Of a DNA stretch of 64,000 bases, positions 58,801 to 61,800 are shown piece by piece. How positions within the stretch are numbered: the stretch's first letter is position 1; the number at the start of each line of letters is the position of its first letter. The stretch lies in the NCBI RefSeq assembly GCF_055900595.2, contig NZ_CM148325.1; one strand, 5' to 3'. Position numbers: made by a program.

Positions 58801-61800
58801 GTTTAGCGTGACAAGTTTGCGAGGGTGATCGGAGTAATCAGTAAATAGCTCTCCGCCAACAATGACGTCATAACCATGATTTCTGGTTTTCTGACGTCCG
58901 TTATCTGTCCCCTCTGACCACGCCAGCATATCGAGGAACGCCTTACGTTGATTATTGATTTCCACCATCTTCTACTCCGGCTTTTTTAGCAGCGAAGCGT
59001 TTGATAAGCGAACCAATCGAGTCAGTACCGATGTAGCCGATGAACACGCTCGTTATATAAGCGAGATTGCTACTTAGTCCGGCGAAGTCGAGAAGGTCAC
59101 GAATGAACCAGGCGATAATGGCGCACATCGTTGCGTCGATTACTGTTTTTGTAAACGCACCGCCATTATATCTGCCGCGAAGGTACGCCATTGCAAACGC
59201 AAGGATTGCCCCGATGCCTTGTTCCTTTGCCGCGAGAATGGCGGCTAACAGGTCATGTTTTTCTGGCATCTTCATGTCTTACCCCCAATAAGGGGATTTG
59301 CTCTATTTAATTAGGAATAAGGTCGATTACTGATAGAACAAATCCAGGCTACTGTGTTTAGTAATCAGATTTGTTCGTGACCGATATGCACGGGCAAAAC
59401 GGCAGGAGGTTGTTAGCGCAGCCTCTTGCCACCCGCTTTCACGAAGGTCATATGTAGAAGGCCGCAGCATAACTATCACTGATGAATTCAGGATAGCCAG
59501 TGGCTACGGCTCAGTTTGGGTTGTGCTGTTGCTGGGCGGCGATGACGCCTGTACGCATTTGGTGATCCGGTTCTGCTTCCGGCATTCGCTTAATTCAGCA
59601 CAACGGAAAGAGCATTTATGGCTCGCATCGCGGGAAAAAGCCCACGGTAGAGAGTCGAACTCTACAAATACTCTTACCTGTTGTGCGCTCCGTTTCGTGG
59701 AGCTAACGGCGACGCTAGTACCGGTCTATGCGTCGCACCCTTGAGGGATTTACTAAGGCGACATGCCCGTTGTTACCCACTCAATTGGACCCTCCCCGTC
59801 GCCATCTGGGTCTAGTCAGGAATCGAACCTGCCGAGGGTACATTTGAATGGGTGCCCATTATTAATCACACCGGGCCAGTGCGCCGAATTTGGTAGCGGG
59901 GAGTCGGAAGACCCCGTGATTTTGGTTTCTTAGGCCGCCATCAACATCAAATCATCGTTTGCATTTATCTTTGTGGTCAGTTTCTAAAAACCCGCAAAGT
60001 CGCCAACTCTGACGAAAACTATCGTTGTGCTGCCACAACGATAAGAGCACTCGGTGCATTTAAGCCAAGCCCCATAAGGGAGAATGCTCTTACCTGTTGT
60101 GCAAACGCAAAAAGCCCTGAGCTATTAACTCAGGGCTTTATTTAACGAGTGCATTTATCCATCGTTGAGTCAAATTTACCCAACTTTATTCAATAAGTCA
60201 ATATCATGCCGTTAATATGTTGCCATCCGTGGCAATCATGCTGCTAACGTGTGACCGCATTCAAAATATTGTCTGCGATTGACTCTTCCTTGTGGCATTG
60301 CACCACCAGAGCGTCATACAGCGGCTTAACAGTGCGTGACCATGTGGGTTGGGTAAGGTTGGGGATTAGCATCGTTACAGCGCGATATGCGGCGCTTGCT
60401 GGCATCCTTGAATAGCCGACGCCTTTGCATCTTCCACACTCTTTCTCAACAACTCTCCCCCACAGCTCTGTTTTGGCAATATCAACCGCACGGCCTGTAC
60501 CGTGGCAATCTCTGCATCTTGCGCCCGGCGTCGCGGCACTACGGCAATAATCAGCATAAGCGAATGTTGCGAGCACTTGCAGTACCTTTGCCTTAGTATT
60601 TCCTTCAAGCTTTGCCACACCACGGTATTTACCCGATACCTTGTGTGCAAATTGCATCAGATAGTTGATAGCCTTTTGTTTGTCGTTCTGGCTGAGTTCG
60701 TGCTTACCGCAGAATGCAGCCATACCGAATCCGGCTTGTGATTGCGCCATCCCCATAGCAGCCATCACATCAGTACCGGAAAGGGAGTCAGAAGCCGTGG
60801 CCCGTGGTGAGTCGCTCATCATCGGGCTTTTTGGCGAATGAAATTTAGCTACGCTTTCGAGTCTCATGCGCCTTCTCCCTGTACCTGAATCAATGTGAGG
60901 TTTCCGCAGAACACTGCTCCGGTATCGATATACATTTGGTTGGCAAACTTGAGTGGTTTCACTGCTGGCGTATGACCAAAGATGAACGTGTCCGCTCCTT
61001 TGATTTCTTTTACGATCCCGTCTTGTGAGTTGCTGATTCGTTCGCGGTTCCAGATTACCTGCTGATGAACAACTGGCTTTCCAAACTCGTATTCGTCACA
61101 AGGATAATCGGCGTGGCAGATAACATATTTTTTACCTTTGCTCACCAGTTCAATGATTAACGGAAGTTCATCTGCTTTATGGGCAAGAGCTTTAGCCAGA
61201 ATTTCTTTGTCGTAATCGAGATTAAAGAACCAGCCACCGCCATTAAACAGCCAGTGATTGACGTTTCCACGCTCTGATAAGCCCTCAATCATCATTTGCT
61301 CATGGTTTCCACGTACAGCTCTGAACCAGGGGAATGTGATTAATTCCAGGCATTCAACGTTCTCTGCACCACGATCAACCAAATCGCCCACCGAGATAAG
61401 CAGGTCTTTTTTGTTGTCGAATCCAATCGTATCCAGTTTGTTCATCAGGTTCGTGTAGCATCCGTGCAGATCGCCAACTACCCAAATATTTCGGTATTTG
61501 CTGCCATCAATTTTTTCGTAATAGCGCATCTCTTTCACTCCATCCGCGATGAACCATAAGAACGTCGTTGACGATGGCGTGCATTTTCCCGTCTTTATCA
61601 TCAACGTATTTTCTGACCGTACCGCGACTACATTTCAGTCTGCGTGCTACTTCTGTCTGGTTTCCGTATGCTTCAACGAGCATGTCTGGAATGGTTTTTA
61701 CTGAGAACGTCATGCGGCCTCACTTCTGCTATTTCGCAGGTCTTTGAGTTTCTGTTGGTACTCTGCCTTGATCGCCTTGCACTCTTCGACAGTCCAGCGA

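What the first reader, a model, noticed from the sequence alone, without database searches (positions are those of the whole stretch)
60103..60201. Very short pR'-tR' interval compared with lambda
pR' (-35 TTGACT / -10 TAAATT) is almost identical to lambda's, but the intrinsic terminator hairpin follows within about 30-60 nt, whereas lambda's 6S transcript is ~194 nt. The Q-utilisation and early-transcribed region is therefore a different variant, which may alter the Q antitermination pause signals.
Basis: partly seen in the sequence, partly recalled or inferred. Interest (0 to 1): 0.3.

Follow-up and report, generated by a model that had tools for sequence, protein, structure and literature searches.

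The report
P22-type short late-leader terminator
The short distance between the phage late promoter and its terminator is real, but it is the ordinary, already annotated P22/HK97-type arrangement (lambda's long 6S RNA is the exception); the unexpected thing lies just downstream, an unannotated tmRNA-like RNA cassette.

Summary
On the minus strand, pR' (-35 60201-60196, -10 60178-60173) is followed by a 13-bp G+C-rich hairpin with a U-run (60139-60107), which gives a terminated RNA of about 58 nt against lambda's 194-nt 6S.

It is not a new variant. The module matches almost base for base the P22 segment annotated as 'P late/PR'', 'qut' and 't late/tR''. It occurs in 83 phage records, including HK97, HK022 and HK620. 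Lambda's long form occurs in 30, nearly all lambda itself or its derivatives.

Q is 100% identical to lambda Q. The Q-binding spacer has one substitution, and the pause element AACGAT and TTGACT are intact. Five substitutions lie at +9 to +24, including G+17 to A. Altered Q signalling is therefore only weakly supported.

Downstream, the window carries a 468-nt cassette where lambda has 41 nt. It holds long hairpin modules and a 172-nt structured RNA (60023-59852) with a tmRNA-type tag frame (ANDDLMLMAA*), a helix around the stop codon and two covarying pseudoknots. No tRNA-like domain was detected. This core occurs in about 470 diverse phage genomes, is essentially never annotated, and I found no description of it.

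The parts
60244..60867 (-). Q antiterminator gene (207 aa)
   Evidence: ORF list; 207/207 identical to lambda Q.
60173..60201 (-). pR' late promoter: -35 TTGACT (60201-60196), 17-nt spacer holding the Q-binding element (60195-60179, one A-to-G change from lambda), -10 TAAATT (60178-60173)
   Evidence: Scan; alignments with lambda, P22, HK97, HK620 and Emek; P22 annotates it as 'P late or PR''.
60161..60173 (-). -35-like TTGACT (60173-60168), start site A60166, and the -10-like pause-inducing element AACGAT (60166-60161)
   Evidence: Identical to lambda and P22 in alignment A2. P22 marks the homologous base as 'P late RNA 5' nt'. The roles of the elements come from established lambda Q literature (own knowledge).
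60107..60166 (-). Short terminated leader RNA, about 55-60 nt: 5' hairpin AACGA..UCGUU, then AAAUAA, then the terminator
   Evidence: Fold at -24 kcal/mol, z = -4.9. Homologous to lambda 6S only up to +23.
60107..60139 (-). tR' intrinsic terminator: 13-bp stem AAAGCCCUGAGUU/AGCUCAGGGCUUU, loop AAU, U-run
   Evidence: Top terminator-like site. Collinear with the P22 't late or tR'' and the Emek 'rho-independent terminator'. HK620 labels the same hairpin 'qut'.
60035..60103 (-). Hairpin module 1: stem GCACAACAGGUAAGAGCAUU / GAGUGCUCUUAUCGUUGU. Its loop holds CUCC-C-UUAU-GGGGCUU (60082-60067), a possible vestige of a permuted acceptor stem.
   Evidence: MFE fold. The 5' strand is 21/21 identical to lambda 44785-44805. 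MAFFT aligns AUGGGGCUU.. with the 5' end of the coding piece of true permuted tmRNAs.
60015..60044 (-). Second terminator-like hairpin UUAUCGUUGUGGCAGCACAACGAUAG followed by UUUUCG; it overlaps the 5' end of the core
   Evidence: Scan; fold.
59852..60023 (-). tmRNA-like core RNA (172 nt): conserved 5' segment GUUUUCG..GCGACUUUGCGG..UUUAGAAACUGACCACAAAGAUAAAU, tag frame, stop-codon helix and two pseudoknots
   Evidence: Sub-threshold Rfam tmRNA hits. Found in 85 IMG/VR loci and 472 phage records. Alignment A3; 23 pairs are 94.7% paired, 13 of them with compensatory changes, 0/500 shuffles reach this.
59930..59962 (-). Tag reading frame GCA AAC GAU GAU UUG AUG UUG AUG GCG GCC UAA = ANDDLMLMAA*
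   Evidence: Frame 0 is open for 10 codons plus a stop in 61/61 sequences. Synonymous variants are common. Third-position entropy is 1.16 against 0.71 and 0.59. There is no start codon and an in-frame UAG lies upstream. A profile of the cores aligns in register with the E. coli ssrA tag.
59917..59943 (-). Helix enclosing the stop codon (UGAU 59943-59940 with AUCA 59920-59917), like tmRNA helix 5
   Evidence: A3 columns 87-91/112-116, with GC to AU covariation in 23 sequences.
59884..59916 (-). Pseudoknot A: stem CGGGG (59916-59912) / CCCCG (59901-59897); loop CCGA (59907-59904) pairs with UCGG (59887-59884)
   Evidence: Compensatory changes in both stems. P1 carries GUCG/CGAC at the same place. 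It resembles the pseudoknot after the tag in alpha and beta two-piece tmRNA models.
59854..59883 (-). Pseudoknot B: stem CGCAC (59883-59879) / GUGUG (59871-59867); loop GCCC (59876-59873) pairs with GGGC (59857-59854); invariant AUUAAUAA between them
   Evidence: CAC/GUG, CAG/CUG and CAU/AUG covary. The second stem is replaced wholesale in other phages (CCCUGA/UCAGGG, GGCGGGAG/CUCCCGCC).
59776..59853 (-). Hairpin module A (degenerate) with a T-arm-like GGCAGGUUCGAUUCCUGAC (59833-59815)
   Evidence: Sequence; MFE fold.
59687..59775 (-). Conserved middle segment, ending in the hairpin GCUCC-ACGAAAC-GGAGC (59703-59687). UUAGCUCCAC resembles the tmRNA 3' acceptor end.
   Evidence: Shared with L009, L088, L097 and L111. 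The hairpin covaries (GCCAC/GUGGC).
59598..59686 (-). Hairpin module B: stem GCACAACAGGUAAGAGUAUU / AAAUGCUCUUUCCGUUGUGC enclosing a T-arm-like GUAGAGUUCGACUCUCUAC (59665-59647) and the hairpin CGUGGGCUUUUUCCCGCG (59646-59629)
   Evidence: Fold. The 3' strand onward is 96.9% identical to lambda. The same cargo lies upstream of the core in L033.
59517..59604 (-). 3' domain shared with lambda: 9-bp closing helix GUUGUGCUG / CAGCACAAC followed by CCA, with internal hairpins
   Evidence: Homologous domains in many loci have GUUGUGGUG/CACCACAAC, a G-C to C-G compensatory change. HK620 ends ..CACCACA-G-CCA. The Rfam tRNA model does not match.
58952..59275 (-). S holin, first late gene
   Evidence: ORF list; lambda alignment.

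Best explanation
This is the P22/HK97/HK022-type late-gene leader of a lambdoid prophage of E. coli. pR' fires constitutively. Without Q, RNA polymerase stops at the intrinsic terminator tR' after about 58 nt and releases a small hairpin-rich RNA. When Q is made, it binds the element between the -35 and -10 hexamers, joins the polymerase held at the sigma70-dependent pause induced by AACGAT (+1..+6), and makes it terminator-resistant. Here Q is identical to lambda Q.

The modified polymerase then reads through tR' and through a second hairpin at 60044-60019. It transcribes a cassette of about 590 nt of structured RNA, followed by S, R, Rz and the rest of the late operon. Relative to lambda, the 6S body and lambda's tR' (175 nt) are replaced by a 40-nt terminator, and lambda's 41-nt hairpin cargo is replaced by 468 nt.

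Shown here: the sequence features, their homology to annotated P22 elements, the identity of Q, the predicted fold, and the frequency of the allele. Inferred: termination and antitermination in this particular prophage.
For: - The promoter and the top-ranked terminator lie at the stated coordinates.
- The gene order Q - leader - S/R/Rz is as expected.
- Q is 207/207 identical to lambda Q.
- The RNA folds at -24 kcal/mol with z = -4.9.
- The module is collinear with the P22 features 'P late or PR'', 'qut', 'RNA 5' nt' and 't late or tR'; antiterminated by gene 23 protein', and with the Emek terminator.
- The same module occurs in 83 phage records, against 30 for the lambda form.
- The lambda 6S body is absent.
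- Sy et al. 2020 (PMC7547250) state that short antitermination-regulated RNAs are made from the late promoters of lambda, 21, phi80, 82 and P22.
Against: - No transcript data exist for this prophage.
- The HK620 annotators called the same hairpin 'qut' and placed a terminator 'tQ' about 650 nt downstream.
- The substitutions at +9 to +17, including G+17 to A, could change pause strength.
Confidence: 0.9

Rival explanations
1. The short pR'-tR' RNA is not just a by-product. It is a trans-acting small RNA, as StxS is in Stx phages and PasD in EPEC prophages.
For: It has sRNA-like anatomy: a 5' hairpin, an A/U-rich linker, and a terminator hairpin with a U-tail. It is 95-99% conserved across 83 phage records of E. 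coli, Salmonella and Klebsiella. There is precedent in StxS (PMC7547250) and in the Q-adjacent PasD sRNAs.
Against: The conservation could equally reflect promoter, qut and terminator function. No Rfam sRNA family matches. No seed or target was examined. This reading is compatible with the best explanation rather than an alternative to it.
Confidence: 0.25
2. The hairpin at 60139-60111 is a Q-utilisation RNA element rather than the terminator, and the real tR' lies further downstream, as in the HK620 annotation.
For: HK620 record: 'qut; putative Q-utilization site' on this hairpin and 'tQ' 650 nt downstream. A second terminator-like hairpin lies at 60044-60019.
Against: Lambda-type qut is a DNA site overlapping the promoter and early transcribed region (own knowledge). 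That region is conserved upstream of the hairpin. The hairpin has a canonical G+C-rich stem and U-run. P22 and Emek annotate it as the terminator. P22, HK97 and Emek have this hairpin but none of the downstream cassette.
Confidence: 0.05
3. For the cassette: the tmRNA-like core is a working template for trans-translation, the coding part of a split or permuted tmRNA. Its tRNA-like partner would be one of the adjacent tRNA-like hairpin modules, another phage RNA or a host RNA. The phage would thereby add its own tag to proteins from stalled ribosomes late in infection.
For: The tag frame shows coding-type constraint and has no start codon. The sequence around the resume codon, the stop-codon helix and the pseudoknots match tmRNA anatomy. 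The hairpin modules have the layout of the tRNA-like part of true permuted tmRNA genes, and module 1 holds CUCC..GGGGCUU. The core is co-transcribed with tRNA genes in virulent phages and in P1.
Against: No tRNA-like domain is detectable. ARAGORN finds nothing at 100% or 90% thresholds. The Rfam models score below threshold. Acceptor-like motifs do not co-occur across loci. Several phages have a promoter or a terminator directly upstream of the core and no module there. No complement to the 5' end was found.
Confidence: 0.4
4. For the cassette: the core is a decoy. It would be a tmRNA-derived RNA without a tRNA-like domain that titrates factors binding the mRNA-like or pseudoknot part of host tmRNA (S1, RNase R, SmpB tail), or that interferes with host trans-translation. 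This would be the mirror image of the mycobacteriophage DS6A RNA that has only the tRNA-like domain.
For: No tRNA-like domain is detected, yet the structure is strongly conserved. There is precedent for partial phage tmRNAs that inhibit host tmRNA (Hudson et al. 2014, PMC4131195; PMC11915505).
Against: A decoy would not need a reading frame kept open with synonymous substitutions and a degron-like C-terminus.
Confidence: 0.3

Closest known systems
Phage P22 late leader (P late/PR' - qut - t late/tR'), also present in HK97, HK022, HK620 and mEp phages
   Same: The sequence from -45 to the end of the terminator is nearly identical. The start site, the terminated RNA of about 59 nt and the lambda-type Q (gene 23) are all the same.
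   Different: P22, HK97 and Emek go from tR' to the holin through about 300 nt with no tmRNA-like core and no hairpin modules. The window inserts about 590 nt of structured RNA.
Lambda pR' - 6S RNA - tR'
   Same: Identical Q, and the same promoter, Q-binding spacer (one change), TTGACT and AACGAT pause element. Homology runs to +23 and resumes from the hairpin-module stem to S.
   Different: Lambda's 175-nt 6S body and its own tR' are absent, so the terminated RNA is about 58 nt against 194 nt. Five substitutions lie at +9 to +24.
StxS (Stx phages) and PasD (EPEC prophages): small RNAs made by termination at tR'
   Same: A constitutive pR' transcript ended by tR' in the lysogen (PMC7547250; bioRxiv 10.64898/2026.05.13.724894).
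   Different: They belong to a different Q/pR' family and have no sequence similarity. No Rfam hit was found. No evidence of regulatory function was obtained here.
Two-piece (circularly permuted) tmRNA, Rfam RF01849 alpha_tmRNA / RF04321 tmRNA_permuted (for the downstream core)
   Same: - The sequence around the resume codon (AUAAAU GCA AAC GA) matches.
- The degron-like tag has 10 codons.
- The stop codon lies in a helix.
- The following pseudoknot has an AACA(G/A)AAU linker.
- A long stem enclosing tRNA-like hairpins lies upstream of the coding part.
   Different: There is no T-arm plus 7-bp acceptor with CCA. Scores are 16-27 bits against gathering scores of 47-84. ARAGORN is negative. The core is found only in phages of Enterobacterales and relatives, and it had one match among 100,044 species-representative genomes.
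Mycobacteriophage DS6A tmRNA with only the tRNA-like domain; complete tmRNAs of Bxz1-like mycobacteriophages and Bacillus phage G
   Same: These are phage-borne tmRNA derivatives. DS6A is a partial form (PMC4131195; PMC11915505).
   Different: DS6A keeps the tRNA-like domain and lacks the tag frame. Here the tag frame and pseudoknots are kept and the tRNA-like domain is missing.

Membership tests
Lambdoid Q-dependent late leader (pR'-qut-tR') | Lambda-type Q gene immediately upstream | tested here: met
   Q at 60867-60244 is 100% identical to lambda Q.
Lambdoid Q-dependent late leader (pR'-qut-tR') | Sigma70 promoter with the Q-binding element between the -35 and -10 hexamers | tested here: met
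   TTGACT-17-TAAATT. The spacer differs from lambda at one base and is identical to P22, HK97 and HK620 except at one T/A position.
Lambdoid Q-dependent late leader (pR'-qut-tR') | Promoter-proximal -10-like pause-inducing element (AACGAT at +1..+6) and the adjacent -35-like TTGACT | tested here: met
   The sequence is identical to lambda. Pausing itself cannot be tested with these tools.
Lambdoid Q-dependent late leader (pR'-qut-tR') | Intrinsic terminator between the promoter and the first late gene | tested here: met
   13-bp hairpin plus U-run at 60139-60107. The homologous P22 feature is annotated tR'.
Lambda 6S RNA | Terminated transcript of about 194 nt homologous to lambda 44587-44780 | tested here: not met
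   Only +1..+23 is homologous. Lambda 44610-44784 has no match in the window.
tmRNA (SsrA), one-piece or two-piece | tRNA-like domain: T-arm, 7-bp acceptor stem with G3.U70, discriminator and CCA end | tested here: not met
   ARAGORN finds nothing in the window or in 40+ related loci at default and 90% thresholds. Only a 4-bp CUCC/GGGG vestige is present in module 1. Motifs do not co-occur across loci.
tmRNA (SsrA), one-piece or two-piece | mRNA-like domain: resume codon without a start codon, short frame encoding a degron ending in hydrophobic residues plus Ala-Ala, then a stop codon | tested here: met
   ANDDLMLMAA*. The frame is open in 61/61 sequences. There are 12 peptides, all ending AA or VA. 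The substitution pattern is coding-type. A profile of the cores aligns in register with the E. coli ssrA tag.
tmRNA (SsrA), one-piece or two-piece | Stop codon in helix 5, followed by pseudoknots | tested here: met
   Five helices with 23 pairs are 94.7% paired; 13 pairs carry compensatory changes.
tmRNA (SsrA), one-piece or two-piece | Reaches the curated score of an Rfam tmRNA model | tested here: not met
   Best scores are 16-27 bits against gathering scores of 47-84. True permuted tmRNAs in L011, L044 and L110 score 103-130 bits.
tmRNA (SsrA), one-piece or two-piece | Alanylation, SmpB and EF-Tu binding, tagging of stalled nascent chains | not testable with these tools
   Needs biochemistry and proteomics.

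The most novel reading that the evidence does not exclude
The short tR' gates more than the lysis genes. It also gates a previously undescribed phage RNA family derived from a two-piece (permuted) tmRNA. This is a 172-nt RNA that has lost any recognisable tRNA-like domain but keeps a tag reading frame under purifying selection, a stop-codon helix and two pseudoknots.

The family is spread through about 470 sequenced phages of at least four very different types: lambdoid phages, P1, Kuttervirus, N4-like podoviruses and many siphoviruses. It usually sits within tRNA operons or, in lambdoid prophages, in the Q-controlled late leader.

If the tag is really translated, phages supply their own template for ribosome rescue or tagging through a split architecture not yet known.
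Probability: 0.4. Interest if true: 0.8.

Novelty: already known. Interest (0 to 1): 0.25.

Why it matters
The finding as stated matters little. It shows that lambda, the textbook case, carries the minority form of the late leader, and that this prophage carries the common P22/HK97 form with lambda's own Q. It is a reminder not to read differences from lambda as novelty.

The surroundings matter more. The Q-controlled leader of this prophage, and in vestigial form that of lambda itself, carries a cassette of tRNA-like hairpin modules and a tmRNA-like coding RNA that no annotation pipeline reports.

If that RNA is functional, it bears on two old questions. One is why lambdoid phages and Mu depend on host trans-translation. 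The other is what the unexplained stable RNAs in phage tRNA clusters do. Testable systems are readily available in HK620, P1, the BASEL collection phages and Kuttervirus.

Tried and rejected
- **tRNA genes between pR' and S, as in Stx phages.** ARAGORN finds none in the whole window. Only T-arm-like fragments are present.
- **A complete one-piece tmRNA from GGGGCUU (60073) to UUAGCUCCA (59705-59698).** Rejected as a general model. The two motifs do not co-occur across loci, and each pairs locally: CUCCC/GGGG, and GCUCC/GGAGC with covariation.
- **An acceptor partner for the 5' end of the core.** A search of virulent-phage loci gave only chance matches.
- **The tag as an ordinary small ORF.** There is no AUG, GUG or UUG in frame after an upstream in-frame UAG, and the other frames are closed.
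- **The core as a recent copy of host ssrA.** Only the tag region aligns with E. coli ssrA, at 5.4 bits. One hit was found in 100,044 species-representative genomes.
- **An attP remnant of ssrA-integrating elements.** Rejected. The core covers the middle of a tmRNA rather than its 3' end, and it occurs in virulent phages.
- **A genome-wide count of the closing helix of the 3' domain by loose pattern matching.** Too noisy to use. Only the manually checked variants are cited.
- **Pairing of GCGACUUUGC with the resume codon, proposed by RNAalifold.** Both sides are invariant, so there is no covariation evidence.
- **Literature searches for a phage tmRNA-like RNA.** Searches found nothing relevant. 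The P1 genome paper is not held.
- **ARAGORN at 80% and 70% thresholds.** It reports the same tags, but amid many false calls, so it was not used as evidence for a tRNA-like domain.
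Full report
**1. What is at the coordinates**

The prophage late region lies on the minus strand:
- Q at 60867-60244
- S at 59275-58952
- R at 58968-58492
- Rz at 58495-58058

Between Q and S the consensus scan finds TTGACT-17-TAAATT at 60201-60173. It also finds, as the best terminator-like site of the 6-kb region, a hairpin of 13 pairs (6 G-C) with a 3-nt loop at 60139-60111, followed by a U-run. A second hairpin lies at 60044-60019.

By homology the transcript starts at A60166, the first base of AACGAT. It ends near 60107-60109, giving about 55-60 nt. This RNA folds into a 5' hairpin plus the terminator at -24 kcal/mol, z = -4.9. Lambda's 6S region folds as a 198-nt multi-hairpin RNA.

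The consensus scan alone is no better than chance for promoters: 5 found against 7.2 expected. Homology removes the doubt (section 2).

**2. Comparison with lambda, P22 and others**

Q is 207/207 identical to lambda Q. BLAST of lambda (end of Q to S) against the window gives three blocks:
- Lambda 44500-44609 matches window 60253-60144 at 95.5%.
- A 21-nt block, TGCACAACAGGTAAGAGCATT, matches 60103-60083 at 100%.
- Lambda 44847-45199 matches 59614-59262 at 96.9%.

Lambda 44610-44784, which is the body of 6S RNA plus lambda's tR', has no counterpart.

In alignment A2 the window is collinear with P22, HK97, Emek and HK620 from upstream of the -35 hexamer through the terminator. Lambda shares the region up to +23. 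Against lambda:
- The -35/-10 spacer, which holds the Q-binding element, has one A-to-G change.
- TTGACT and AACGAT are identical.
- Substitutions lie at +9, +11, +15, +17 and +24.

**3. It is a known allele, and the common one**

The curated P22 record BK000583 annotates four features on the homologous bases:
- 'P late or PR'' at 37852-37880
- a qut-like site
- the RNA 5' nucleotide at 37887
- 't late or tR'; antiterminated by gene 23 protein action' at 37917-37945

That makes a terminated RNA of about 59 nt. Emek annotates the hairpin as a rho-independent terminator. HK620 labels it 'qut' and places a 'tQ' far downstream, which I regard as a mis-assignment.

Megablast with the 106-nt module finds it at 80% coverage or more in 83 phage records. 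These include HK97, HK022, HK544, HK542, the mEp phages, ECP1 and many P22-like Salmonella phages. The lambda pR'+6S segment is found in 30 records, nearly all lambda itself, its laboratory hybrids and DE3.

Sy et al. 2020 note that short antitermination-regulated RNAs are made from the late promoters of lambda, 21, phi80, 82 and P22. They show that the Stx-phage version, StxS, is a regulatory sRNA (PMC7547250). A 2026 preprint describes the Q-adjacent PasD sRNAs.

The finding is therefore real but ordinary. The suggestion that Q signalling differs rests only on the changes at +9 to +17, in a sequence that serves lambda-type Q proteins in many phages.

**4. What lies between tR' and S**

P22, HK97 and Emek run from tR' to the holin through about 300 nt with no further conserved RNA features. 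The window instead carries about 590 nt that fold far better than shuffles (-212 kcal/mol, z = -4.4).

*Hairpin modules.* The region holds three long 'hairpin modules'. Each has a conserved stem of about 18-20 bp, GCACAACAGGUAAGAGCAUU paired with (A/G)GUGCUCUUUCCGUUGUGC, around variable cargo. The cargo often includes T-arm-like hairpins such as GGUUCGAUUCC and GAGUUCGACUCUC.

Lambda has one such module, with 41 nt of cargo, followed by a 3' domain closed by a 9-bp helix. The window's 468-nt cassette (60082-59615) sits exactly in place of lambda's cargo, so the module stems are the recombination joints.

The reference list of Sy et al. cites Daniels et al. 1988 on RNase III processing sites in the lambda late leader. 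The long stems are the obvious candidates, but that is my inference.

*The core.* Rfam gives only sub-threshold hits in this region, and all are to tmRNA families, centred on 59984-59930. ARAGORN finds no tRNA or tmRNA in the window.

The hits mark a 172-nt core at 60023-59852. A 15-mer from it retrieved 123 IMG/VR loci, 85 of which carry the whole core. A BLAST of the core finds it in 472 of 50,697 phage records. These include:
- lambdoid phages (HK620, HK633)
- P1-like phage-plasmids
- Kuttervirus myoviruses of about 157 kb
- podoviruses of about 72 kb
- many Klebsiella, Salmonella, Escherichia and Cronobacter siphoviruses
- Erwinia and Aeromonas phages

The match is almost always unannotated. 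In E. coli complete genomes, PGAP annotates nothing there. One exact-pattern scan of 100,044 species-representative genomes found a single, probably mis-binned, contig.

In virulent siphoviruses the core has its own promoter, TTGACA-17-TAGATT, and is co-transcribed with tRNA-Met and tRNA-Arg up to a terminator. In P1 it lies just upstream of tRNA-Asn and tRNA-Thr. In Kuttervirus it sits in the tRNA cluster.

**5. Anatomy of the core**

In 61 distinct sequences (alignment A3) a frame starts at GCA. It is preceded by AUAAAU, by no start codon, and by an in-frame UAG eight codons upstream. The frame is open for exactly ten codons and then stops. The other two frames hit stops in 59 and 41 of the 61 sequences.

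Twenty-one nucleotide versions encode twelve peptides, among them ANDDLMLMAA in the window, ANEEMYLAVA in HK620, ANDDVVLMAA, ANDEQFLAVA, ANDNTFLAVA and ANDTEFKAAA. All end in AA or VA. Synonymous variants are common. Entropy by codon position is 0.71, 0.59 and 1.16. A profile of the cores aligns with E. coli ssrA only at the tag, in register from resume codon to stop.

The stop codon is enclosed by a helix, and two H-type pseudoknots follow. On A3, the 23 pairs of these five helices are 94.7% paired. Thirteen pairs carry compensatory changes (121 cells), and 0 of 500 shuffles reach the observed values. Slid controls give 29-45% pairing. P1 has a divergent copy, with tag ANDDLMMVAA, whose pseudoknot stems are changed in a compensatory way.

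**6. Relation to tmRNA**

Three IMG/VR contigs caught by the same 15-mer (L011, L044, L110) carry genuine permuted two-piece tmRNAs. ARAGORN calls them 'tmRNA*'. Rfam scores them at 119-130 bits for alpha_tmRNA and 103-117 bits for tmRNA_permuted.

Their gene layout is a long helix enclosing the T-arm, the acceptor hairpin and the D-loop analogue. This is followed by the single-stranded resume region, the tag and a pseudoknot with an AACAGAA linker. The phage loci show the same layout: a hairpin module, then the core, with an AAACAAAU linker in pseudoknot A.

In the window, the loop of module 1 reads CUCC-C-UUAU-GGGGCUUGGCUUAAAUGCAC. MAFFT places this on the AUGGGGCUGAAAUAGGAUCGAC start of the coding piece.

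The membership test for tmRNA nevertheless fails on the defining tRNA-like domain:
- There is no T-arm next to that vestigial 4-bp acceptor.
- ARAGORN is negative at 100% and 90% thresholds. At 80% it picks the same tags, but among many false calls.
- Rfam scores are 16-27 bits against gathering scores of 47-84.
- Acceptor-like motifs do not co-occur across loci.
- Many phages have no module upstream of the core.
- No partner for the 5' end was found.

The tmRNA surveys list phage tmRNAs only in mycobacteriophages and Bacillus phage G, plus the DS6A form that has only the tRNA-like domain. They report nothing like this RNA (PMC4131195; PMC11915505). My other literature searches found no description either.

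**7. Mechanism, committed**

*Leader (confidence 0.9).* This is a P22-type constitutive pR' transcript, ended at tR' after about 58 nt in the lysogen. A lambda-identical Q loads at the conserved Q-binding and pause elements and carries the polymerase through tR' and the second hairpin into the cassette and the lysis genes.

*Cassette.* I consider it about 0.9 likely that the core is a functional, conserved structured RNA released from the late transcript, probably by cleavage in the flanking long stems. Two readings of its function follow.
- Most likely (0.4): it is a tmRNA-derived template whose tag is actually translated, with the tRNA-like function supplied in trans or by a module.
- Next (0.3): it is a decoy acting on the host trans-translation machinery.

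Shown here are the homology, the structure, the frame constraint and the distribution. Processing, charging and tagging are inferred.

**8. Verdict**

The finding as written is confirmed but already known, and of low interest. Its mechanistic speculation is only weakly supported.

Noticed in passing
window 59852-60023 (-), tag frame 59962-59930: An unannotated 172-nt tmRNA-like RNA. It has a resume codon and a 10-codon degron-like tag (ANDDLMLMAA*), a helix around the stop codon and two covarying pseudoknots. No tRNA-like domain was detected. It is present in about 470 phage genomes of very different types.
   Followed up: yes
window 60035-60103, 59776-59853, 59598-59686 (-); lambda 44785-44865 (L003 ~986-1066): Repeated 'hairpin modules'. 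Each has a conserved stem of about 18-20 bp, GCACAACAGGUAAGAGCAUU / GUGCUCUUUCCGUUGUGC, around variable cargo that often includes T-arm-like hairpins. They flank the core and, in P1, real tRNA genes. They have the layout of the tRNA-like part of permuted tmRNA genes and are likely RNase III sites and recombination joints. Lambda itself has one.
   Followed up: partly
window 59517-59604 (-); lambda 44857-44944 approx.; HK620 L001 ~2035-2135: A conserved 3' domain closed by a 7-9-bp helix: GUUGUGGUG/CACCACAAC in most loci, GUUGUGCUG/CAGCACAAC in lambda and the window. It has an internal D-arm-like hairpin and a T-arm-like hairpin, and in some phages it is followed by N-CCA (HK620: CACCACA-G-CCA). 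It looks tRNA-like but is not recognised by the tRNA models. It is present in lambda's well-studied late leader without any annotated function.
   Followed up: partly
window 60015-60044 (-): A second terminator-like hairpin (11 bp, followed by UUUUCG) between tR' and the core. The conserved GUUUUCG start of the core doubles as its U-run. In P1 a strong terminator sits at the same place.
   Followed up: no
L129 (P1-like MH422554) 1490-1690: P1-like phage-plasmids carry a divergent copy of the core (tag ANDDLMMVAA) in the unannotated gap after dmt, upstream of tRNA-Asn and tRNA-Thr. This explains the 289 plasmid-borne matches in E. coli genomes.
   Followed up: partly
L011 4671-5038, L044 956-1317, L110 1973-2297: IMG/VR contigs with complete alpha-type permuted tmRNAs (tags ANDNFAPRLALAA, ANDNFAPQEFAQAA, ANDNFAPQELAQAA). 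They share the 15-mer around the resume codon with the enterobacterial phage RNA. L110 also has a glutamine riboswitch, which suggests a marine alphaproteobacterial or pelagiphage origin.
   Followed up: partly
HK620 record AF335538 15610-15652 (L001 1560-1602): The HK620 annotation calls the tR' hairpin 'qut; putative Q-utilization site'. P22 and Emek annotate the same sequence as the terminator, so this is a likely mis-annotation that has propagated in databases.
   Followed up: yes
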